Part shown: positions 44,796-52,281 of the stretch, piece after piece
Numbering within the stretch: the stretch's first letter is position 1
Layout of the letters: each line of letters begins with the position of its first letter
Origin: a virus
IMG/VR virus record: IMGVR_UViG_3300042545_001167
Location: 52,710-116,709 of that record
Strand: one strand, 5' to 3'
DNA: 64,000 nt
The notes under the pieces: model-generated
Told to the model about the DNA's origin: nothing
Databases searched by the model: none
The model's input: only the letters and a program-made list of their open reading frames with translations
Position numbers and translations under genes: made by a program

Positions 44796-45566
44796 TTACA
44801 TCAACCACTGAACAAAACCAGTACGCTCTTTTCCATTGCTGGGAGTTACGCTATGGTATGATAAATCATTACTCAAATCACAAATAAAAACTCTGTTGTA
44901 TATAGGGAGTATTTGATCAATTAGAACCAAATCATGGACTTTATTATCAGCAAATCCTCCACCTGGACAATCAGTTTGAATTCTTTTATGAGTTGTTAAA
45001 AAATCCATCCTAGATTCTGGATTAATGTTATTAATTTTAAATGACGATTCAGAACATTCTTCATCAACTCTCCATAATTGTAACATGCCGCCATCTTCAT
45101 ATTTCCAATTTTTATTGAAGTAGCAAATAACTACAAGTTTTCTAGAAAAACTATCAGTATGAATCCAAAATCCATTTGCATATGGTCTGTGATACCTAAG
45201 TTTAATTTCAGTATGACATGGATGATTCAATTGATAGTTAGAATTTACCAATCGAACAAGATATTCGTGCCATTCTGGATTAAAAAATAAATCAGATCCA
45301 ATATGAATTTCTTGATTTGCAAATACAACAGATCCATCATAAGGAAGAAGTTCTGAATCAGTGTCAGACCTTCTATCAAGATATTCACTGAATTCTAAAG
45401 TTTGATGCTGCTTGATTAGTTCTTCTAACTTATCTTCTTTAAAGAAATTATCTAAAACTAGATATTTAATATCTGGTTTTGATTTTACAGTTTCCTGCAA
45501 TTGTTCAAAGTATGAAGAATTGAGATATTGTGGATTTATCCAATTAGAAAGAGTTTGCATTATCAT
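44796..45566 (-). CDS. 2OG-Fe(II) oxygenase (prolyl-hydroxylase-like)
   Basis: HTD, GGMLQLW, YHSVTP...R motif. Confidence 0.85.
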   Translation of the reverse strand: MIMQTLSNWINPQYLNSSYFEQLQETVKSKPDIKYLVLDNFFKEDKLEELIKQHQTLEFSEYLDRRSDTDSELLPYDGSVVFANQEIHIGSDLFFNPEWHEYLVRLVNSNYQLNHPCHTEIKLRYHRPYANGFWIHTDSFSRKLVVICYFNKNWKYEDGGMLQLWRVDEECSESSFKINNINPESRMDFLTTHKRIQTDCPGGGFADNKVHDLVLIDQILPIYNRVFICDLSNDLSYHSVTPSNGKERTGFVQWLM

Positions 45567-45799
45567 TCTTCAATATCATCAGGATCAATATAACATGGTT
45601 GATCAGTCAACCATTTCGCATACTCAATATCCTCCATTGCAAGAGAAAATTGCATAGAATTATCGAACAAATAAACGTCATTCCACCTCTTAGAATAATA
45701 ATCTTGCATTTGAAGACGGTAATCTGGTTTGCCGTTCAGTTCAATAATTCCCCGTTCAACAAACCTAAATCCCTCACGTTCAAGAAGAACTTTTGTCAT
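45563..45799 (-). CDS. Conserved cyanophage hypothetical protein
   Basis: 78 aa; ATGA overlap with upstream gene. Confidence 0.6.
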   Translation of the reverse strand: MTKVLLEREGFRFVERGIIELNGKPDYRLQMQDYYSKRWNDVYLFDNSMQFSLAMEDIEYAKWLTDQPCYIDPDDIEE

Positions 45800-46011
45800 G
45801 CAACCTCGATTGTTTCTAGATCAGAAAGAACATATTCCATAAGCATTTCATAATCATCCAGAGGATCACCAGAGAATACTACACCTTCTTGCTCATAAAA
45901 ACGGCGAACTTTTTTAAAGAGTTTTGGATTCTTTACATCAAGATAGAATTCACCATTAGCAGCACCACGAAGGGTTTGAACGTCTTTCTTAAATTTAGAA
46001 GTGAGAGTCAT
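45796..46011 (-). CDS. Conserved cyanophage hypothetical protein
   Basis: MTLTSKFKKD...LDVKNPKL; TTGACT-17-TATAAT upstream. Confidence 0.65.
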   Translation of the reverse strand: MTLTSKFKKDVQTLRGAANGEFYLDVKNPKLFKKVRRFYEQEGVVFSGDPLDDYEMLMEYVLSDLETIEVA

Positions 46012-46087
46012 TGTTTTGAATGTTGACCTTGTTATTATAGGAAAAATAGTGTTGAAAGTCAAGTAGGACAGTTCGGTTTCTGTCCAG

Positions 46088-46160
46088 TGCTGGTTGCGAG
46101 GATCGAACTCGCCTCCCATCGATTATGAGTCGATTGCATTCGCCAGATTGCTAAACCAGC
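46088..46160 (-). tRNA. tRNA-Met/Ile2 (CAT), elongator type
   Basis: Cloverleaf, loop CTCATAA, GTTCGA. Confidence 0.88.
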
Positions 46161-46183
46161 ATTCGCTATTCGCAAATAGCGAA

Positions 46184-46255
46184 TGGGGATACTGGGAGTT
46201 GAACCCAGACTAAGCCCTTATAAGGAGCCCGCTCTAACCATTAAGCTATACCCCC
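46184..46255 (-). tRNA. tRNA-Ile (TAT)
   Basis: Cloverleaf, loop CTTATAA. Confidence 0.88.
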
Positions 46256-46294
46256 ATAAATCCAGGTCTATTCTAGAGGACCTGGAACTCTTTG

Positions 46295-46528
46295 TCAAGA
46301 ACCTTCTTCGTGATCGGTGTGGATTTTAACTATATCATCAATATCCACATTTGCGTCTTCACATATCTGCACAACTTCATTGTAAGGAATCATAACTACA
46401 TTTCCATGCTCACTTGTTATGATAAATGATTCTCCTTTTTCAACTCTATCTATCAAGTTATCAAAATCTGCTTGAAACTCTTCTACTGTAAATGATTTAA
46501 GTTCGTTAATTTCTTGATACATTTTCAT
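46295..46528 (-). CDS. Phd/YefM-like antitoxin-domain protein
   Basis: FTVEEFQADFDNLIDRVEKGESFIITSEHGNVVMIPY. Confidence 0.7.
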   Translation of the reverse strand: MKMYQEINELKSFTVEEFQADFDNLIDRVEKGESFIITSEHGNVVMIPYNEVVQICEDANVDIDDIVKIHTDHEEGS

Positions 46529-46546
46529 AAAGTCAATTTTTATGAG

Positions 46547-46620
46547 TCGGAATGACAGGATTCGAACCTGCGGCATCTCGCTCCCAAAGCGAGTGCTCTA
46601 CCAAACTGAGCTACATTCCG
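46547..46620 (-). tRNA. tRNA-Pro (TGG)
   Basis: Cloverleaf, loop TTTGGGA. Confidence 0.93.
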
Positions 46621-47154
46621 TTACTTTTGTTTTGTTTGATGTATAACCATTATACCCAAGACTGGAACCATTGTCAAGAGGTAGCAAAGGATAAAAAGCG
46701 AAACCTGATTATCCAGAATTAAATGAGCAAAGTCTCTCATCGTACTCTATCTATAACAGCAAGAACCCCATGGGCATAGAAGAAAAGCAAAACCGAACCG
46801 ATTGTTGCTGATATTATTGTAGCAGTTTTATTGTGTTTGTCAATTGCTTTTGCAACTGATTGGTCAATCATTTCCTGTACTTCATCAGGAGTCATTTTTC
46901 ATCTCCAAGAAATTTTGCAAGAGGGTCGCGACCTGTCTTAATAATTTCACAGGCTCTACGATAAAACATATTACTGGTATTACCAGATTTCTCAAAAGTT
47001 TCTTTTATTTTTACCCAGTTATCAAACGTATGTTCGTCCATGGGTTTTCTGCGTAGTACTATTATATAATAGTTTTCAAATTTTGAATGTCAATGAAATG
47101 TGTCCATTATGTAACACTACTGAAGAAATTATTAAATTTTGGTATCAATTATAG

Positions 47155-47239
47155 CGGAGAGGGTCGGATTCGAACCCACGGAAGCTTTCACTTCGGCAGT
47201 TTTCAAGACTGCTGCCTTAAACCACTCGGCCACCTCTCC
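47155..47239 (-). tRNA. tRNA-Ser (TGA)
   Basis: Long variable arm, loop CTTGAAA. Confidence 0.93.
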
Positions 47240-47249
47240 AATATGAGAT

Positions 47250-47501
47250 TCAACGAATCTCGAAGTCCAGTTTACGAACTTTACGTTGTCTTCTTGCTTC
47301 CTGAAAAGCAAGATCTTGATTAGAAAGCACATTTGATTTTTGTGTTTCCTTTAATGAGTTTAGCATAACAACTCTAGATAAGTCAAGTGCTGAAATCTTA
47401 TCTCCGCGAATTGTTGCCATATTTGAACATCCACAAGTTATAGTTTTTGTTGGGTGTCCAAGTAATTCTTTGTTACAATCTTTGCATCTTATTGATAACA
47501 T
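47250..47501 (-). CDS. Small Cys-rich hypothetical protein
   Basis: CKDC...CGC. Confidence 0.6.
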   Translation of the reverse strand: MLSIRCKDCNKELLGHPTKTITCGCSNMATIRGDKISALDLSRVVMLNSLKETQKSNVLSNQDLAFQEARRQRKVRKLDFEIR

Positions 47502-47516
47502 TGTTCTTCATCCTAT

Positions 47517-47951
47517 TCACTGTAAATGTGATCTTAACATCCATACAAATTTGCCGTGGGATTCCATTAAGTCTTGAACCAAATTAGCAGTTGCATATTG
47601 CTTTTGTGCTTCTGATTCTTCCGAAATCTCTACCATTAACTCACAAAACTTGATGTTATTATCAAGAAGTTCCTGAAGCATTTCTCCTGCTCCTGTTGAA
47701 CTTGCTGCCTCTTTGATTTGAGTTACCTCAAGCATTCTTGAGAGAGAACTTAAAGGTTTAATATTTAGATATCTCATATGCTCAGAGAGTCTATCAACCT
47801 CTTCAAACATAGTCTCATACTGTCCGCCAAAGAGTTGATGAAGTTGAGTAAAATCACTTCCTACAACATTCCAGTGAAATGCCCAAGTTTTATGAAATAA
47901 AACAAAAAGTGACGATTGAGCATCACTTAAGAGTTTAAACAATTTCTCCAT
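47517..47951 (-). CDS. dps: Dps family ferritin-like DNA protection protein
   Basis: FHWNVVGSDFTQLH...F...Y...DRLSE; C-terminal KFVWMLRS. Confidence 0.92.
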   Translation of the reverse strand: MEKLFKLLSDAQSSLFVLFHKTWAFHWNVVGSDFTQLHQLFGGQYETMFEEVDRLSEHMRYLNIKPLSSLSRMLEVTQIKEAASSTGAGEMLQELLDNNIKFCELMVEISEESEAQKQYATANLVQDLMESHGKFVWMLRSHLQ

Positions 47952-47978
47952 TATACTTTTTTTCAAGTATTTATGCAA

Positions 47979-48051
47979 TGGGCAATCGCAGATTCGAACT
48001 GCGGACTTTCTGCGTGTAAAGCAGACACTCTAACCGCTGAGTTAATCGCCC
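47979..48051 (-). tRNA. tRNA-Val (TAC)
   Basis: Cloverleaf, loop TTTACAC. Confidence 0.93.
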
Positions 48052-48074
48052 GAAAGGTGATGAGTGGCCACCAC

Positions 48075-48178
48075 CCGCAGAAGACACTTTCTGCAATTTC
48101 ACCGTGTTAGAGAACGGTGAATAAGAGAAAACACCAAACCTTATTCTTCCTGTTTTCAGGAACGCACCAAATGGGTTG
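48075..48178 (-). ncRNA. wcaG-like structured RNA
   Basis: Two TTTGGTG motifs, each followed by stems (TTCCTG/CAGGAA; GAATAAG/CTTATTC); name from recollection. Confidence 0.5.
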
Positions 48179-48257
48179 GGAGACTCTAGAGATTTTACCT
48201 CCGAAGTTTGTCCAGCATTTTCAATTTGAAAGAATCAGACATTTCCAATCCTTCCAA

Positions 48258-48329
48258 CTCCCCCGACAAGATTCGAACTTGTGACCTGGAAATTAACAGT
48301 TTCTCGCGCTACCGCTGCGCCACAGGGGA
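48258..48329 (-). tRNA. tRNA-Asn (GTT)
   Basis: Cloverleaf, loop CTGTTAA. Confidence 0.92.
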
Positions 48330-48350
48330 ATAAAGAACCCGAAGGTTCAG

Positions 48351-48422
48351 AGCGGAGTATCGGAATCGAACCGACGACATCTAACTTGGAAGGATAGCGT
48401 TCTACCGCTGAACTAACTCCGC
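48351..48422 (-). tRNA. tRNA-Gly (TCC)
   Basis: Cloverleaf, loop CTTCCAA. Confidence 0.92.
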
Positions 48423-48462
48423 TTATAAGACAATCATAAACTATTTTAGTTTGATTGTCAAG

Positions 48463-48544
48463 TGTCGATGAAAGGACTTGAACCTTCACAGATTAATCTA
48501 CTGGAACCTAAACCCAGCGCGTCTACCAATTCCGCCACATCGAC
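48463..48544 (-). tRNA. tRNA-Leu (TAG)
   Basis: Long variable arm, loop TTTAGGT. Confidence 0.92.
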
Positions 48545-48639
48545 TTGATGGATTAAGTGTGATATACCTCATAAGGGTATAACAGTGACTTAACCTCTAT
48601 CACTTTTATATAGTAACAGATTCTTATGAATCTGTCAAG

Positions 48640-48713
48640 CGTCCTTTGAGAGATTCGAACTCCCGACACATAGGTTCGTAGCCTACTGCTCTGCTCCACT
48701 GAGCTAAAAGGAC
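48640..48713 (-). tRNA. tRNA-Arg (ACG)
   Basis: Cloverleaf, loop CTACGAA. Confidence 0.92.
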
Positions 48714-48716
48714 AAA

Positions 48717-48788
48717 TTCTGAGAGTAGGATTCGAACCCACGAATGGCGGGACCAAAACCCGCTGCCTTACCACTTGGCGACCTCAGA
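48717..48788 (-). tRNA. tRNA-Gln (TTG)
   Basis: Cloverleaf, loop TTTTGGT. Confidence 0.92.
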
Positions 48789-48860
48789 AGCCCTCAGTCG
48801 GATTTGAACCAACGACCTACTCATTACTAGTGAGTTGCTCTACCACTGAGCTATAAGGGC
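48789..48860 (-). tRNA. tRNA-Thr (AGT)
   Basis: Stem ACTCA/TGAGT, loop CTAGTAA. Confidence 0.9.
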
Positions 48861-48862
48861 GG

Positions 48863-48933
48863 GGTGCCGTATGGGAATTGAACCCATCTAGTCGGTTCCA
48901 CAAACCGATGCCTTACCACTAGGCTAACGACAC
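48863..48933 (-). tRNA. tRNA-His (GTG)
   Basis: Cloverleaf, loop TTGTGGA. Confidence 0.9.
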
Positions 48934-48934
48934 A

Positions 48935-49017
48935 CGGAAGATGTTGGATTCGAACCAACGGAGGTGTTACCCTCACGGTTTAGCAAACCGCTGCATTAAC
49001 CGCTCTGCCAATCTTCC
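48935..49017 (-). tRNA. tRNA-Ser (GCT)
   Basis: Long variable arm, loop TTGCTAA. Confidence 0.92.
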
Positions 49018-49019
49018 AA

Positions 49020-49092
49020 TGGAAACAACTGGACTCGAACCAGTGGTCTTTCGATTATCAGTCGAATGCTTTACCAACTAAGCTATGTTTCC
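49020..49092 (-). tRNA. tRNA-Ile (GAT)
   Basis: Cloverleaf, loop CTGATAA. Confidence 0.93.
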
Positions 49093-49096
49093 ATAG

Positions 49097-49168
49097 TATT
49101 CCTAACGGGATTCGAACCCGTGCTGCCACCTTGAAAGGGTGGTGACCTAACCGCTAGTCGATAGGAAC
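49097..49168 (-). tRNA. tRNA-Glu (TTC)
   Basis: Cloverleaf, loop CTTTCAA. Confidence 0.92.
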
Positions 49169-49235
49169 TTGATATGAAGGCAGGTGCGGTATCTCCTTTC
49201 GGTTCCCATGCTCCTTTTTCTTTCCTTACCTTCAA

Positions 49236-49309
49236 CGACCCATACGGGATTCGAACCCGTGATCTCCACCGTGACAGGGTGGCGTGATAGACCGCTACAC
49301 TAATGGGTC
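49236..49309 (-). tRNA. tRNA-Asp (GTC)
   Basis: Cloverleaf, loop CTGTCAC. Confidence 0.93.
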
Positions 49310-49313
49310 AAGG

Positions 49314-49395
49314 TGGGAGGAGCAGGATTCGAACCTGCGAAGGCAGAGCCGTCTGATTTACAGTCAGATTCCTTTAGCCACTCGGAAATCCTCCC
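49314..49395 (-). tRNA. tRNA-Tyr (GTA)
   Basis: Long variable arm, loop CTGTAAA. Confidence 0.93.
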
Positions 49396-49399
49396 ACGA

Positions 49400-49472
49400 T
49401 GGGTCTGGTGGGACTCGAACCCACGGTACGCTGGTTAAAAGCCAGATGCATTCGCCGCTATGCTACAAACCC
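49400..49472 (-). tRNA. tRNA-Lys (TTT)
   Basis: Cloverleaf, loop CTTTTAA. Confidence 0.93.
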
Positions 49473-49473
49473 A

Positions 49474-49890
49474 TTAAATAAGTCCAAAGTACTGGAGTCG
49501 TTTTCTATTACCATTTCCTTTATTGAGAGCCTTATAGTTCTCAGTCAAAGAGTGGCAGTTAGGACACAATACCCTTAAGTTTTCTTCCTTATTATTGGAA
49601 CAATCACCATCAATATGGTCTATCTCCAAAGGAGATTTTCCAGTAGATGGATTTATTTTATTCCAACCACAAGAAGAGCACTGATGATTGTTTTTTTCTA
49701 AAAGATATTCCCTAACACCAGATTTAAGTCTGTATCCAGCTTTAACACCAGTATTAGGATTTTCTTTCCAATCATCAATAACTTTTTTCTGCTGATACTT
49801 TTGTTGGCATTTGTTAGAGCAATACTTACCAGTCTTTTGGGATGGTCTGAAAGAAACCTCAATGCCACAAGTCAAACAGTTGGACTTCAT
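49474..49890 (-). CDS. HNH homing endonuclease at the head of the tRNA array
   Basis: CLTC..YCSNKC; CSSCG...LEIDHIDGD..NN..ENLRVLCPNCH. Confidence 0.9.
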   Translation of the reverse strand: MKSNCLTCGIEVSFRPSQKTGKYCSNKCQQKYQQKKVIDDWKENPNTGVKAGYRLKSGVREYLLEKNNHQCSSCGWNKINPSTGKSPLEIDHIDGDCSNNKEENLRVLCPNCHSLTENYKALNKGNGNRKRLQYFGLI

Positions 49891-50075
49891 TTTAGTTAGG
49901 TTAGAGTAGTTGTTATTATTTATTTTACTCTAACTTTACCAAAATGTAAAGTTATGATATAGGATAAATATTCGGTTGTCGATGTGCTGGTGGTCTCTCA
50001 ACCACCCTTTAAGAATACCACCGTTTGGTCTCTGGGGGGAGATTGGTGGGCACTTAGGAAACTGTCACAGGCAAT

Positions 50076-50109
50076 AAAAAAGAGGAGGAAACTTTTGGTT
50101 TCTCTCCCC
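50076..50109 (-). terminator. Intrinsic terminator of the putative attenuator
   Basis: GGGGAGAGAAAC-CAAAA-GTTTCCTCCTC-TTTTTT. Confidence 0.8.
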
Positions 50110-50135
50110 TGTCTTTTGCTTTTATGGATTACATC

Positions 50136-50234
50136 TTACATATGTCTTTCCATATTCGCAAACAGGGGAGTTCCCTCAATATGCCAATAGCGGCAATCAA
50201 GAGTACTAATCTGTTTGTTCATTTGGAAAGACAT
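50136..50234 (-). CDS. Putative attenuator leader peptide (32 aa; not in ORF track)
   Basis: MSFQMNKQISTLDCRYWHIEGTPLFANMERHM; AGG RBS-like; TATAAATA late promoter at 50256-50263. Confidence 0.65.
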   Translation of the reverse strand: MSFQMNKQISTLDCRYWHIEGTPLFANMERHM

Positions 50235-50288
50235 TGTTTTCGACCTAAGTGTGTTTATTTATAAGACTTTTTTTGTTAAAAAGTCTAA

Positions 50289-50362
50289 CGCCTCAGGTTG
50301 GATTCGAACCAACGGCTAACCGCTTAGAAGGCGGATACTCTAGTCCACTGAGTTACTGAGGC
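50289..50362 (-). tRNA. tRNA-Arg (TCT)
   Basis: Cloverleaf, loop CTTCTAA. Confidence 0.93.
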
Positions 50363-50367
50363 ATAAA

Positions 50368-50432
50368 GTAGGTTCCTATCGCCGCCACTCCTGAACCTAC
50401 CGAAGGGGAGTGCCGCAGTTGATTTCTCAACT
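50368..50432 (-). ncRNA. Unnamed compact hairpin + pseudoknot RNA 5' of tRNA-Arg
   Basis: AGTTGA-GAAA-TCAACT; CACTCC/GGAGTG stem whose loop GTAGGTTC pairs with downstream GAACCTAC. Confidence 0.6.
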
Positions 50433-50443
50433 CTGATATTATA

Positions 50444-50845
50444 CTACTGCTTGGGGCAGTCGTCAACCCATGGAGCACAGATTCTCATTTCACCTCCCAA
50501 CAATCTTGATTCTCCAGTTTGGATTTCAGTATTGATAGGTTTCTCTGAGTATCGTGGTGAAGGTATTCTAACCTTTCCATCGTCTCCTGTCAAGCGTTCA
50601 TACTCTGCTATTGCTGCATCAACATCACGCTTGATTCTTCTTTCAAGTTTCTTATCATCCTTAATCACAAACTCATTAAGTATTGTGCCTGGAAAATATT
50701 TTCTTTGAATTTCGTCTAGTAAGTCCCAAAGACCAGTCTCAGAAACTCCTGTACATTGTGAGAGTGCTGCAATAATAGAAGATAATATTATACCGATTAT
50801 TGCGTATTGTTTTATATCTGGTTTCTTTTTTCCAAATTTAAACAT
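50444..50845 (-). CDS. Hypothetical membrane-anchored protein
   Basis: 133 aa, N-terminal TM; TAAATA upstream. Confidence 0.6.
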   Translation of the reverse strand: MFKFGKKKPDIKQYAIIGIILSSIIAALSQCTGVSETGLWDLLDEIQRKYFPGTILNEFVIKDDKKLERRIKRDVDAAIAEYERLTGDDGKVRIPSPRYSEKPINTEIQTGESRLLGGEMRICAPWVDDCPKQ

Positions 50846-50891
50846 AAGAAAGGGGAGGTCTGCAGCACTCCCCTCTATTTATTCTATTGTA

Positions 50892-51524
50892 TTAAACTTC
50901 TACCGGAATCAGTCTGGAAGCATAATCATGAGCATACGAAGTACGAGCACCATGATGCCCCCAACCAATCCAACTATACGCATAGTCCATGTAACTATTG
51001 ATAGACTTACCAGGAATTTTCATCCTGTCTTCAATTCGTTTCCATTGAACTTCAGTCGTTAGATAACGAAGTTGCGTTGGAAGTGCTGATGGAGAACCAC
51101 CATACCTCTTAGCAAAATCACCCAATCCATAATAACGATCGGCAGATGTCCATTGAATCAGTCCGTAACCACGGCCGCAGTTACTCCAACTGGTTCTACT
51201 ACCACCTTCACAAATGTTAGGAACAAAAGTTGATTCCTGACGAATGTTACCCATGATGGTAGCAAGGGCGTTTCTGTCTTTAATACCACGATCCTGGAAG
51301 TACGCCAGGGTAGCATTCTCATGTTCATTACACCCTTTACAAATTAGCCTTTTCTCTTTTGGCTTTTCGGGAGCAACCTCTTTGGTCGCTGTCGTAGTTT
51401 CAAACTCCTTAATAACAGAAAACGGCACTGGAGGTGTCGTCAGAGGAGGAAATACCGGCAGTGTTGCCATATTGGTTGTAACCGATGCCAGAAGAGGCAG
51501 GGCTACAGTAAAGAATTGTTGCAT
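50892..51524 (-). CDS. Secreted phage tail lysozyme-family cell-wall hydrolase
   Basis: Signal-like MQQFFTVALPLLAS; ALATIMGNIRQESTF, GYGLIQWTS. Confidence 0.8.
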   Translation of the reverse strand: MQQFFTVALPLLASVTTNMATLPVFPPLTTPPVPFSVIKEFETTTATKEVAPEKPKEKRLICKGCNEHENATLAYFQDRGIKDRNALATIMGNIRQESTFVPNICEGGSRTSWSNCGRGYGLIQWTSADRYYGLGDFAKRYGGSPSALPTQLRYLTTEVQWKRIEDRMKIPGKSINSYMDYAYSWIGWGHHGARTSYAHDYASRLIPVEV

Positions 51525-51655
51525 TAATTTTAATTGAACTCTACATCCGTATAGAAAGGGGGTACACCACTTCTCTCGAAGGGCACTTTCCACGGCTCTA
51601 ATTGTCACTCAAAGTCTCATAATAAAAAAAGATTCACATAGTTGTGAATCTTAAC

Positions 51656-51684
51656 ATTATAAGTTTTTATTTAGATTTTGTCAA
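51656..51684 (-). promoter_or_regulatory. Consensus sigma70 promoter with embedded late TAAATA
   Basis: TTGACA-AAATCTAAATAAAAACT-TATAAT. Confidence 0.8.
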
Positions 51685-51854
51685 TCTTCTGGTTCCAATG
51701 AGACAATTTCAAGTTCATCACCTTCAGGTTCAATCCATTCATAAAACTCTGCAAGAATAGCACGAGCATTCTCTTCAGAAAGATTTCTATCTGCTGCCCT
51801 CTCAAGAGACCACTCCCTCACATGTGCGACGATATCTTCAGTCGTTGTTTCCAT
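51681..51854 (-). CDS. Hypothetical acidic protein
   Basis: METTTEDIVAHVREWSLER...; start chosen at end of upstream gene. Confidence 0.5.
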   Translation of the reverse strand: METTTEDIVAHVREWSLERAADRNLSEENARAILAEFYEWIEPEGDELEIVSLEPED

Positions 51855-52281
51855 AATAATCTTTTCGGAAGTACCTGTTGAGGATATTGCTATTGTAGTA
51901 TCTTGGAGTTCCGTCGTCAAGTCCTTCTGCGAGGACATTATTTCCGAAGAGTTGTCTTGTCTCTTCGAAGTTTGTTTTGCCCTTTGTTTTATGTAATGAT
52001 ACGATAGTTCTACTAAAATTTTCTCTGCCAAATTTGATAATGTCTTCTTTAAGTTCCGGACAAGACCCATAGTATTTTTTCCAATCTGATTCTGATTTTA
52101 CTTTTCGTTTTTTCCCTTTAGGAGTTCTAAACTGCCAGAAATATTTCCTACCAATATATTTCCTGTTATTAAGATTATTCTGGATAAGATAAACAAAACC
52201 AAAAAAATCTTGTATATCATCCGAAATAAAAGGTTTTCCATTATAAACCCAAGGATTTTCATAGTCAATATCTATACTCAT
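51838..52281 (-). CDS. GIY-YIG family nuclease-like protein
   Basis: GFVYLIQN...KYIGRK...YYGS...E...YYN. Confidence 0.8.
   Translation of the reverse strand: MSIDIDYENPWVYNGKPFISDDIQDFFGFVYLIQNNLNNRKYIGRKYFWQFRTPKGKKRKVKSESDWKKYYGSCPELKEDIIKFGRENFSRTIVSLHKTKGKTNFEETRQLFGNNVLAEGLDDGTPRYYNSNILNRYFRKDYYGNND

What the first reader, a model, noticed from the sequence alone, without database searches (positions are those of the whole stretch)
50076..50263. Candidate pan-amino-acid attenuator controlling the phage tRNA array (general tRNA-depletion sensor)
Seen: a late promoter TATAAATA (50256-50263) precedes a 32-codon ORF, MSFQMNKQISTLDCRYWHIEGTPLFANMERHM, which contains 19 of the 20 amino acids (all but Val) within its first 26 codons. 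It is followed by an intrinsic terminator (50076-50109) and then the HNH gene and tRNA array. Mutually exclusive helices are present. Antiterminator: CTCCCCTGT (50162-50170, codons 22-25) pairs perfectly with ACAGGGGAG (50104-50112), the terminator's 5' arm, and extends via TTGC/GCAA. Protector: ATGTCTTTCCA (50224-50234) pairs perfectly with TGGAAAGACAT (50142-50152), with inner CATATT/AATATG enclosing the antiterminator strand. All ten tRNAs of the first downstream block (Lys, Tyr, Asp, Glu, Ile-GAT, Ser-GCT, His, Thr-AGT, Gln, Arg-ACG) have a cognate codon in codons 4-20, including AGT, ACT and CGC. Known: trp/his attenuators have this layout but use runs of one amino acid. Inference: a ribosome stalled at almost any starved or cleaved-tRNA codon frees the antiterminator and switches on phage tRNA supply, a feedback counter to anticodon-nuclease defence or starvation. 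Caveat: a possible downstream promoter may give basal expression.
Basis: partly seen in the sequence, partly recalled or inferred. Interest (0 to 1): 0.92.

Follow-up and report, generated by a model that had tools for sequence, protein, structure and literature searches.

The report
Leader-peptide attenuator before cyanophage tRNA genes
A small translated reading frame, two competing RNA hairpins and a terminator sit in front of the tRNA gene array of many S-PM2-like cyanophages, laid out like a classical attenuator that could let the phage make more tRNA when translation slows.

Summary
On the minus strand the order is TATAAATA (50263-50256), a 32-codon ORF (50234-50136), an intrinsic terminator (50110-50076), then the tRNA array.

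- **Family.** The same unit occurs in S-PM2, in 115 IMG/VR loci and in divergent relatives. All 109 loci with at least 400 nt of downstream flank have a same-strand tRNA within 800 nt, usually tRNA-Lys(UUU).
- **ORF.** It stays at 31-35 codons, with in-frame indels and synonymous variation.
- **RNA folds.** Covariation supports two mutually exclusive folds. A closed hairpin buries the AUG. A second hairpin pairs ORF codons 22-26 with the terminator's 5' arm.
- **Promoters.** In S-PM2 and L121 the scans found no promoter between the terminator and the next 12 or 18 tRNA genes. The leader's TATAAATA is the only one in each tRNA region.

My best reading, at 0.55, is a ribosome-dependent transcription attenuator gating the tRNA array.

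The "pan-amino-acid sensor" idea is only partly supported. Amino-acid diversity alone is not significant. The match between leader codons and the downstream tRNAs is: 10 of 10, reached by none of 14,807 control windows.

Predicted equilibrium favours the terminator in most members, so antitermination would have to be kinetic. Nothing was tested experimentally. I found no description in print.

The parts
50288..50363 (-). tRNA-Arg(TCT), the gene upstream of the leader. An early-type promoter TTGACG-17-TATAAT lies at 50466-50438.
   Evidence: an upstream tRNA (Arg, Ala, Asn or Gly) is seen in most relatives
50264..50286 (-). A/U-rich hairpin AGACTTTTT-AAC-AAAAAAAGTCT between tRNA-Arg and the late promoter
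   Evidence: read; conserved in the alignment; function not examined
50256..50263 (-). T4-type late promoter TATAAATA, the only one on this strand between 45500 and 52000
   Evidence: kept in nearly all rows of the alignment (L032 has CATAAATA)
50243..50246 (-). Shine-Dalgarno-like AGGT, 8 nt before the ATG
   Evidence: present in most relatives but replaced in L031, L036, L041, L052, L077
50136..50234 (-). Leader ORF of 32 codons plus TAA: MSFQMNKQISTLDCRYWHIEGTPLFANMERHM
   Evidence: 62 distinct peptides of 31-34 aa in relatives; indels in multiples of three and synonymous variation
50224..50237 (-). Closed hairpin, outer helix 5' arm (includes the AUG)
50138..50152 (-). Closed hairpin, outer helix 3' arm (last codons of the ORF). 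It alternatively pairs with 50134-50123.
50211..50217 (-). Segment 1 (CAAACAG, the Asn/Lys/Gln codons), which pairs with segment 2 in the closed state
50169..50207 (-). Apical hairpin covering the codons for ..TLDCRYWHIEGT
   Evidence: a different sequence but the same hairpin in L122
50158..50170 (-). Segment 2 (CTCCCCTGTTTGC, codons 22-26). It pairs either with segment 1 or with the terminator's 5' arm.
50123..50154 (-). Small hairpin with the stop codon in its loop, forming the inner part of the antiterminator hairpin
50104..50119 (-). Segment 3 (GCAAAAGACAGGGGAG). It is both the antiterminator partner and the terminator's 5' arm.
50076..50110 (-). Intrinsic terminator: a 12-bp stem with one bulge, loop CAAAA, and T6
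   Evidence: a terminator was found in 78 of 78 relatives folded
49983..50075 (-). Conserved structured spacer (CCACC...GGTGG and GGTGGT...ACCACC hairpins) between the terminator and the array
   Evidence: shortened in group B and L121
49954..49982 (-). Sigma-70-like promoter TCGACA-17-TATCAT. In relatives it ends 1-2 nt before tRNA-Lys.
49474..49890 (-). HNH-like endonuclease ORF, inserted between that promoter and tRNA-Lys. Most relatives lack it.
   Evidence: HNH_3 at 24.4 bits, cut-off 24.8
46087..49473 (-). tRNA array: Lys, Tyr, Asp, Glu, Ile, Ser, His, Thr, Gln, Arg, Leu, Gly, Asn, Val, Ser, Pro, Ile, Met

Best explanation
This is a ribosome-dependent (leader-peptide) transcription attenuator that gates transcription into the phage tRNA array.

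Transcripts start at the late promoter TATAAATA, or read in from the early promoter ahead of the upstream tRNA. They carry a 31-35 codon ORF and can take one of three states.

- **No ribosome.** The whole ORF folds into one long closed hairpin that buries the AUG. The terminator then forms and transcription stops.
- **Ribosome runs through.** A ribosome that has passed about codon 18, or sits at the stop codon, covers segment 2 or sits between segments 2 and 3. The terminator again forms.
- **Ribosome held up.** If the ribosome is delayed within about codons 3-17, segment 1 is covered and segment 2 (CUCCCCUGUUUGC) is free. Segment 2 pairs with the terminator's 5' arm as soon as that arm is made. 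Polymerase then reads on into tRNA-Lys and the rest of the array.

Shown here: the parts, their conservation, covariation for both competing folds, the conserved ORF and the tRNA context. Inferred: that stalling causes read-through, and that the stall signal is a shortage of the tRNAs the array supplies.
For: **1. A conserved family**
- S-PM2 has the same unit.
- A degenerate motif scan of IMG/VR gave 117 loci, of which 115 are true relatives.
- Divergent relatives L120/L121 and L122 also carry it.

**2. Context**
- 109 of 109 loci with at least 400 nt downstream have a same-strand tRNA within 800 nt. Five more had too little flank.
- The first tRNA is usually tRNA-Lys(UUU).

**3. The ORF is kept**
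- 115 of 117 records have an intact ORF. One is cut by a contig end and one (L108) is frameshifted.
- There are 62 distinct peptides of 31-34 aa.
- Within the ORF, indels are 3, 6 or 9 nt. After the stop they are 1-5 nt.
- Synonymous variation occurs at K, Q, R, I, G, Y, P, L and A. AAA CAG changes to AAG CAA, which keeps Lys-Gln while the pairing changes.
- Codon-position entropy is 0.357, 0.397 and 0.517 for positions 1, 2 and 3.
- L122 keeps 33 codons although the peptide core changes from DCRYWHIEG to DCLNGHPNK.

**4. Closed fold plus terminator**
- 90.3% of cells are paired.
- 22 pairs and 107 cells show changes on both sides. Shuffles give 14.9 and 32.9, and 0 of 500 reach the observed values.
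- Slid controls give 34-49% paired.

**5. Antiterminator fold**
- 89.9% of cells are paired.
- 8 pairs and 31 cells show changes on both sides. Shuffles give 4.6 and 6.8, with 6 of 500 and 0 of 500 reaching the observed values.
- Slid controls give 41-60% paired.

**6. Three-way concerted changes**
- The main group has segment 1 CAAACAG, segment 2 CTGTTTGC and segment 3 GCAAA.
- 8 of 8 S-PM2-type and group-B rows have AGCAAGCA, TGCTTGCT and GCAAG instead.
- All 3 rows with ACAAA in segment 3 have TTTGT in segment 2.
- The 5' arm, the 3' arm and the post-stop segment change together, for example ATGACCTACC, GGTAGGTCA and GAACCAAACCAT.

**7. Energy order**
- In the window the closed hairpin is -39.7, the antiterminator hairpin -29.4 and the terminator -19.1 kcal/mol.
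- In 78 of 78 relatives, RNA made up to the terminator's 5' arm folds with 5-11 bp between the ORF and that arm. That fold is more stable than the terminator core, mean -27.7 against -17.7.

**8. Obligatory read-through in some members**
- In S-PM2 no sigma-70-like site was flagged between the terminator and the next 12 tRNA genes.
- In L121 none was flagged before the next 18.
- The only TATAAATA of each tRNA region is the one before the leader.

**9. Leader codons match the array**
- In the window the match is 10 of 10, reached by 0 of 14,807 control windows.
- Across 45 unique loci mean coverage is 0.85 against a null of 0.50, with a median per-locus P of 0.008.
Against: - **Predicted equilibrium favours the terminator.** With the ribosome-covered 5' part removed, the mean terminator pair probability stays near 0.78. 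It drops below 0.5 in only about 19% of the 78 sequences. The window itself falls to about 0.33 for P-site codons 3-17. Antitermination would therefore have to work by forming first, not by being more stable.
- **Many members bypass the terminator.** 42 of 77 unique spacers, and the window, have a sigma-70-like site after the terminator. Part of the array's expression can therefore bypass it.
- **The peptide core is nearly invariant.** K, Q and DCRYWHI are invariant in 69 unique ORFs. That also fits a functional peptide or an arrest peptide.
- **No runs of one codon.** This is the hallmark of classical amino-acid attenuators, and it is absent.
- **Amino-acid diversity is not significant on its own.** P is about 0.008 with 57 comparable ORFs in the window. 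Column shuffles show no sign that it is actively maintained.
- **Leader codons and tRNA content do not clearly co-vary.** Variable leader residues against tRNA gene content are confounded by relatedness. Independent pairs were underpowered, with median p of 0.25 to 1, and Tyr goes the wrong way.
- **Covariation counts are not independent events.** They rest on few independent events in closely related sequences.
- **No direct evidence** of translation or of regulated read-through exists.
Confidence: 0.55

Rival explanations
1. It is a small late gene. The 31-35 aa peptide, with its conserved core KQ..DCRYWHI(E/A)(G/Q)xP(L/V)(F/L)A, is the functional product. The terminator simply ends the gene, and the hairpins tune mRNA stability or the timing of its own translation by burying the AUG.
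For: - The peptide core is invariant in 69 unique ORFs, with synonymous changes at R, I, G, K and Q.
- The unit has its own late promoter and terminator.
- A profile search of 1.84 billion representatives found only small ORFs of 32-38 aa, plus one unrelated repetitive protein of 182 aa.
- A metatranscriptome contig of a relative spans about 50252 to 50063, roughly the predicted start-to-terminator unit. This is a weak hint only, because contigs do not show transcript ends.
Against: - This reading does not explain why ORF segment 2 stays complementary to the terminator's 5' arm through concerted changes in three clades and in L122.
- Both ends of the peptide vary freely and follow the RNA pairing.
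- In L122 seven core residues differ while every RNA element and the 33-codon length are kept.
- No Pfam or PHROGs family matches.
- In S-PM2 and L121 the tRNAs behind the terminator have no recognisable promoter of their own.
Confidence: 0.2
2. It is an attenuator, but the stall signal is the nascent peptide, not tRNA supply. The conserved DCRYWHI..P core would act as an arrest peptide that responds to some ligand or state of the ribosome.
For: The central residues are strongly conserved at the amino-acid level while both flanks vary. All the structural evidence for switching listed under the best explanation applies equally here.
Against: - L122 (core DCLNGHPNK) and L121 (core DCGRTWQHI) change the core yet keep the architecture.
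- A stall at or after the P-L-F codons would cover segment 2 and favour termination in the masked folds. Such a stall would not switch anything.
- No similarity to a known arrest peptide was tested or seen.
Confidence: 0.1
3. It is a stable structured small RNA made from the late promoter, comparable in position to the stable RNAs of the T4 tRNA cluster (recalled from memory). The ORF would be incidental.
For: - The fold is very stable: z -7.2 in the window, -3.9 in S-PM2, -4.8 in L121 and -7.0 in L122.
- It is a discrete promoter-to-terminator unit inside a tRNA cluster.
- The antisense frame is also open in 65 of 69 unique ORFs, so openness of a frame alone is weak evidence for coding.
Against: - The ATG is invariant and the stop sits at the same place.
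- Indels inside the ORF come only in multiples of three, whereas 1-5 nt indels occur just after it.
- The third codon position is the most variable, and synonymous changes preserve Lys-Gln while the helix changes.
- No Rfam family matches at E up to 1.
Confidence: 0.08

Closest known systems
Leader-peptide transcription attenuators of amino-acid operons (trp, his, leu, thr, ilvGMEDA, pheA of enteric bacteria; recalled from established knowledge)
   Same: A short translated leader ORF sits ahead of the regulated genes. Pairings 1:2, 2:3 and 3:4 are mutually exclusive and end in an intrinsic terminator. The closed state forms when nothing is translated. The terminator is thermodynamically favoured, so the antiterminator must form first. 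Sensing of two or three amino acids is known for thr and ilv.
   Different: There are no runs of a regulatory codon; the first 18-20 codons hold 12-16 different amino acids. The regulated genes are tRNA genes, not biosynthetic genes. The element is phage-encoded and driven by a T4-type late promoter. An extra outer helix buries the AUG. The antiterminator is a long hairpin with the stop codon in its loop.
Tn916 tet(M) leader peptide and antibiotic-responsive ribosome-mediated attenuators such as bmrB-bmrCD and mef/msr leaders (recalled; PMC4335068 seen only as a search listing)
   Same: The leader ORF reports the general speed of translation, not the supply of one amino acid, and gates a downstream terminator.
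   Different: Those systems control resistance genes and respond to drugs. Here the output would be tRNA supply, which would make it a feedback loop on translation itself.
T-box riboswitches
   Same: Functionally, they also link tRNA status to read-through of a terminator.
   Different: T-boxes bind uncharged tRNA directly and have no leader ORF. No T-box or other Rfam family matched here.
Stable RNAs encoded in the T4 tRNA cluster (species 1 and 2; recalled)
   Same: They are small structured transcripts encoded among the tRNA genes of a T4-like phage.
   Different: No sequence comparison was made here. The present element carries a conserved ORF and a switchable terminator.

Membership tests
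Leader-peptide (ribosome-mediated) transcription attenuators | Short ORF with a start codon in the leader transcript, conserved as an ORF | tested here: met
   ORF 50234-50136. It is intact in 115 of 117 records at 31-34 codons. Indels are in-frame and synonymous variation is present.
Leader-peptide (ribosome-mediated) transcription attenuators | Intrinsic terminator between the leader ORF and the regulated genes | tested here: met
   Stem plus T6 at 50110-50076. A terminator was found in 78 of 78 relatives folded. The scan flagged it in S-PM2 but not in the window.
Leader-peptide (ribosome-mediated) transcription attenuators | Antiterminator pairing that shares a strand with the terminator and a strand with the ORF region | tested here: met
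   50170-50158 pairs with 50119-50104. Covariation is above the controls. It is present in 78 of 78 relatives and in L122.
Leader-peptide (ribosome-mediated) transcription attenuators | Anti-antiterminator pairing (1:2) that forms when the leader is not translated | tested here: met
   The closed hairpin has 22 covarying pairs. Three-way concerted changes are seen.
Leader-peptide (ribosome-mediated) transcription attenuators | Runs of codons for the regulating amino acid(s) | tested here: not met
   No amino acid is repeated in tandem. The sensing part holds 12-16 different residues out of 18-20.
Leader-peptide (ribosome-mediated) transcription attenuators | Read-through depends on ribosome stalling in the leader | not testable with these tools
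   Only masked-footprint folds are available. They predict a switch in the window but leave the terminator favoured at equilibrium in about 80% of relatives.
Any curated Rfam family (riboswitch, T-box, known leader) | Match to a covariance model | tested here: not met
   cmscan of 45500-52000 at E up to 1 gave no match over 50076-50255. Only tRNAs and chance hits were found elsewhere.
Known protein families (Pfam, PHROGs) for the peptide | Profile match | tested here: not met
   0 families for the window and S-PM2 peptides.

The most novel reading that the evidence does not exclude
The element is a phage-encoded tRNA-supply homeostat. The leader ORF samples, once each, the codons served by the phage's own tRNA genes, with the invariant Lys codon sitting in segment 1 and tRNA-Lys as the first gene downstream. 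A shortage of any of these tRNAs would stall the ribosome and open the terminator, so that the array is transcribed from the only late promoter in the region. The shortage could come from codon-usage mismatch with the GC-rich host, from host shut-off, or from tRNA-cleaving defence. This would be the first attenuator whose output is tRNA itself, and the first leader built to sense many tRNAs at once.
Probability: 0.3. Interest if true: 0.9.

Novelty: new variant of a known kind. Interest (0 to 1): 0.78.

Why it matters
- **How phages control their tRNA genes.** Phage tRNA genes are common, but how their expression is controlled is largely unknown. If this reading is right, a large group of T4-like cyanophages couples tRNA synthesis to the measured speed of translation, using an attenuator of a new design.
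- **Why tRNA-Lys comes first.** It would explain why tRNA-Lys and its followers sit behind a terminator without a promoter of their own in S-PM2.
- **A testable system.** S-PM2 and Synechococcus WH7803 can be cultured, so feedback control of tRNA supply during infection could be tested directly.
- **Annotation.** S-PM2 records lack the ORF and instead carry an antisense ORF that overlaps tRNA-Arg.

Tried and rejected
**Searches that found nothing relevant**
- Rfam at E up to 1 gave nothing on the element.
- Pfam and PHROGs gave nothing for the peptide.
- tblastn of the peptide against 50,697 phage records found only the three S-PM2 records. The Pseudomonas and Acidovorax hits (E 0.3-7) are chance.
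- blastn of the 391-nt region likewise found only S-PM2 above chance.

**Amino-acid diversity as evidence**
- I rejected it as a stand-alone argument.

**Association of variable leader residues with tRNA gene content**
- Raw Fisher tests look strong for Pro and Leu (odds ratio about 20). They are negative for Tyr and null for Asn.
- Independent-pair tests on a tree of the flanks are underpowered, with 4-6 pairs each. I do not count this as support.

**Public RNA runs**
- Only contigs were available.
- In X3, a 193-nt contig of a relative covers 50071-50252 with 8 further unmatched letters.
- In X4, a 222-nt contig covers 50047-50268.
- In X1, which is near-identical to the window, a 602-nt contig covers 49477-50053 and none covers the leader.
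- Contigs show neither transcript ends nor levels, and DNA may be present in these libraries. A part without cover proves nothing.

**Other points considered**
- The antisense ORF (window 50124-50264, + strand; S-PM2p162) is open in 65 of 69 unique sequences. It has stops in 4, overlaps tRNA-Arg in S-PM2, and is disfavoured by the codon-position pattern.
- RNAalifold on the spacer alignment gave no consensus structure. The hairpins there were read by eye only.

**Literature**
- Five full-text searches and passages of PMC10690425 and PMC3037559 gave no description of this element.
The catalogue of candidate viral RNA structures in PMC10690425 may list this region in supplements I could not see.
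Full report
**What is in the window.**
All features lie on the minus strand, in this order:
- tRNA-Arg(TCT) at 50363-50288
- an A/U-rich hairpin
- TATAAATA at 50263-50256
- AGGT, 8 nt before the ATG
- a 32-codon ORF at 50234-50136
- a bulged 12-bp stem followed by T6, at 50110-50076
- about 93 nt of conserved spacer
- a sigma-70-like promoter at 49982-49954
- an HNH-like ORF at 49890-49474
- 18 tRNA genes from 49473 down to 46087

The RNA from 50250 to 50060 folds at -66.4 kcal/mol, with z -7.2. The whole ORF lies inside one long hairpin whose outer helix pairs the AUG region with the last codons.

**It is a conserved family.**
- S-PM2 has the same unit between tRNA-Arg and tRNA-Lys, without the HNH gene. 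Its ORF is 34 codons and differs by in-frame indels of 3 and 9 nt.
Of these, 115 are true relatives; L045 and L094 are chance hits.
- Among isolate genomes only S-PM2 matched. Records of the window's own genome may have been withheld.
- A profile of 16 peptides searched against 1.84 billion representatives found six small ORFs of 32-38 aa and one unrelated repetitive protein. I see no sign that the peptide is a domain of larger proteins.
- Two divergent forms were recovered with their DNA:
  - L120/L121 have core DCGRTWQHI and 35 codons.
  - L122 has core DCLNGHPNK and 33 codons counted from the family ATG.

**Context.**
- All 109 loci with at least 400 nt downstream have a same-strand tRNA within 800 nt. 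Five had too little flank.
- That tRNA is nearly always tRNA-Lys(UUU), followed by Tyr, Asp and Glu.
- Among 56 unique leader-plus-array combinations with at least 2.5 kb downstream, the most constant tRNAs are Arg(ACG) 54, Ile(GAT) 53, His 53, Lys 53, Asp 52, Glu 51, Gln 50 and Met 50.

**Is the ORF translated?**
The evidence is indirect but consistent.
- The ORF is intact in 115 of 117 records. L081 is cut by the contig end and L108 carries a 2-nt insertion.
- Indels inside the ORF are 3, 6 or 9 nt, while just after the stop they are 1-5 nt.
- The third codon position is the most variable, with entropies of 0.357, 0.397 and 0.517 for positions 1 to 3.
- Synonymous alternatives occur at K, Q, R, I, G, Y, P, L and A.
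- AAA CAG becomes AAG CAA in the S-PM2 and group-B clades. This changes the helix but keeps Lys-Gln.
- One caution: the antisense frame is open in 65 of 69 unique sequences, so openness alone proves little. That frame has stops in 4 sequences, its first position would be the most variable, and in S-PM2 it overlaps tRNA-Arg.

**Two competing folds, both supported.**
The counts below were made on 79 unique leaders (alignment A2).

| Fold | Cells paired | Pairs changed on both sides (observed vs shuffled) | Cells changed on both sides (observed vs shuffled) | Shuffles reaching observed, of 500 (pairs; cells) | Slid controls, paired |
|---|---|---|---|---|---|
| Closed hairpin plus terminator | 90.3% | 22 vs 14.9 | 107 vs 32.9 | 0; 0 | 34-49% |
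| Antiterminator hairpin | 89.9% | 8 vs 4.6 | 31 vs 6.8 | 6; 0 | 41-60% |

The antiterminator hairpin joins ORF segment 2 to the terminator's 5' arm. It encloses a small hairpin that has the stop codon in its loop.

Because the structures were derived from the window's own sequence and the family is close-knit, the paired percentages are inflated. The concerted changes are the real evidence:
- The main group has CAAACAG, CTGTTTGC and GCAAA in segments 1, 2 and 3. All 8 S-PM2-type and group-B rows have AGCAAGCA, TGCTTGCT and GCAAG.
- The 3 rows with ACAAA in segment 3 all have TTTGT in segment 2.
- The AUG arm, the pre-stop arm and the post-stop segment change together, for example ATGACCTACC, GGTAGGTCA and GAACCAAACCAT.
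- Group B has a different terminator (GGGGGGC...GCCCCCC), and its segment 2 is correspondingly GUCCCCC.
- L122 keeps the closed fold (z -7.0) and a 12-bp antiterminator (-26.7 kcal/mol, z -4.6), although seven core residues of the peptide differ.

These are few independent events, so I treat the covariation as good but not overwhelming.

**Energetics and the predicted switch.**
- In the window the closed hairpin is -39.7, the antiterminator hairpin -29.4 and the terminator -19.1 kcal/mol.
- In 78 of 78 relatives, RNA made up to the terminator's 5' arm folds with 5-11 bp between the ORF and that arm. That fold is more stable than the terminator core, mean -27.7 against -17.7.
- Without a ribosome the terminator pair probability averages 0.95.
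- With a footprint masked and only the downstream RNA folded, the window's terminator probability is about 0.33 for P-site codons 3-17 and above 0.9 from codon 19.
- Against the model, the family mean stays near 0.78 and only about 19% of sequences drop below 0.5. At equilibrium the terminator therefore wins in most members.
- The antiterminator could act only by forming first. From memory, this is also true of the trp attenuator.

**Does the array need read-through?**
- In S-PM2 a perfect TTGACA-17-TATAAT precedes tRNA-Arg, and the leader terminator is flagged (14 pairs). No plus-strand sigma-70-like site is flagged until 4339, after 12 tRNA genes.
- In L121 none is flagged between 5238 and 7300, a stretch that holds 18 tRNA genes.
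- In S-PM2, L121 and the window, the only TATAAATA in the tRNA region is the one before the leader.
- By contrast, 42 of 77 unique spacers have a sigma-70-like site. The commonest is TAGACA-N-TATTAT, ending 1-2 nt before tRNA-Lys. By the usual spacing, transcripts from it would start inside tRNA-Lys. That is my inference.
- In the window the HNH cassette is inserted exactly there.
- The attenuator would thus be the sole route into the array in some phages, and the late-phase route in others.

**The 'pan-amino-acid' idea.**
- Nineteen different residues in 32 has P of about 0.008 by composition, and occurs in 0.65% of real 32-residue windows.
- With 57 comparable ORFs in the window, of which 2 reach 19, this is not significant alone.
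- The family averages 18.6 different residues in 32.7; four peptides have all 20 and S-PM2 has 15.
- Column shuffles show no active maintenance, and L122 has 16.
- The more specific prediction fares better:
  - All ten first downstream tRNAs have a cognate codon in leader codons 4-20. None of 14,807 control windows reaches 10, and 40 reach 9.
  - Across 45 unique loci coverage is 0.85 against 0.50, with a median per-locus P of 0.008. These loci are related, so this is essentially one observation, confirmed across the family.
- Tests of variable residues against tRNA content were inconclusive.

**Verdict.**
The attenuator architecture is well supported by comparison of relatives. The multi-tRNA feedback reading is plausible but unproven, and the link to anticodon nucleases is speculation. 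I found no description of the element in five full-text searches and two papers read in passages. Supplements were closed. I file it as a new variant of ribosome-mediated attenuation. It meets the structural criteria of that class. It does not meet the 'runs of regulatory codons' criterion, and the functional criterion could not be tested.

Noticed in passing
window 49983-50075 (- strand); L001 3207-3324: A conserved, apparently structured spacer lies between the leader terminator and tRNA-Lys. It holds the hairpins CCACC...GGTGG and GGTGGT...ACCACC and a small CTTG...CAAG stem. It is shortened to one hairpin in group B and almost absent in L121, so it seems dispensable. Its function is unknown.
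   Followed up: partly
window 49954-49982 and relatives: A sigma-70-like promoter has its -10 box ending only 1-2 nt before the 5' end of tRNA-Lys in at least 25 unique spacers. Transcripts from it should start inside the tRNA. The HNH cassette of the window (49953-49474) is inserted exactly between this -10 box and tRNA-Lys. L033 has the same insertion, and L077 keeps a short remnant.
   Followed up: partly
window 50264-50286 (- strand): An A/U-rich hairpin AGACTTTTT-AAC-AAAAAAAGTCT sits directly between tRNA-Arg and TATAAATA, and is conserved across the family. It could be a weak terminator or a processing signal for the upstream tRNA.
   Followed up: no
L001 2864-3220 (S-PM2p162) and L119 215-571 (S-PM2d160): The annotated 118-aa antisense ORF in S-PM2 overlaps tRNA-Arg and the leader, and is probably spurious. 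The leader ORF itself is not annotated.
   Followed up: partly
L108 478-668: One family member has a 2-nt insertion where others have 3 nt, which puts the ATG out of frame with the DCRYWHI codons. The shifted frame is still open for 34 codons. It could be an assembly error or a real frameshifted variant.
   Followed up: no
window 45500-52000 (- strand): There is an unusually dense set of near-perfect sigma-70-type promoters among the tRNA genes and small ORFs. The scan found 31 where shuffles give 15.0, and nine of them match 11-12 of 12 positions.
   Followed up: no
L122 153-1968: The most divergent relative has a rearranged array: Lys, Pro, Met, Asn, Val, Ile, Gly, Asp, Glu, Phe. Its leader core has gained Asn, Pro and Lys codons and lost Arg, Tyr, Trp, Ile and Glu codons. 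This is a single case, and it only partly fits the idea that leader codons follow array content.
   Followed up: partly
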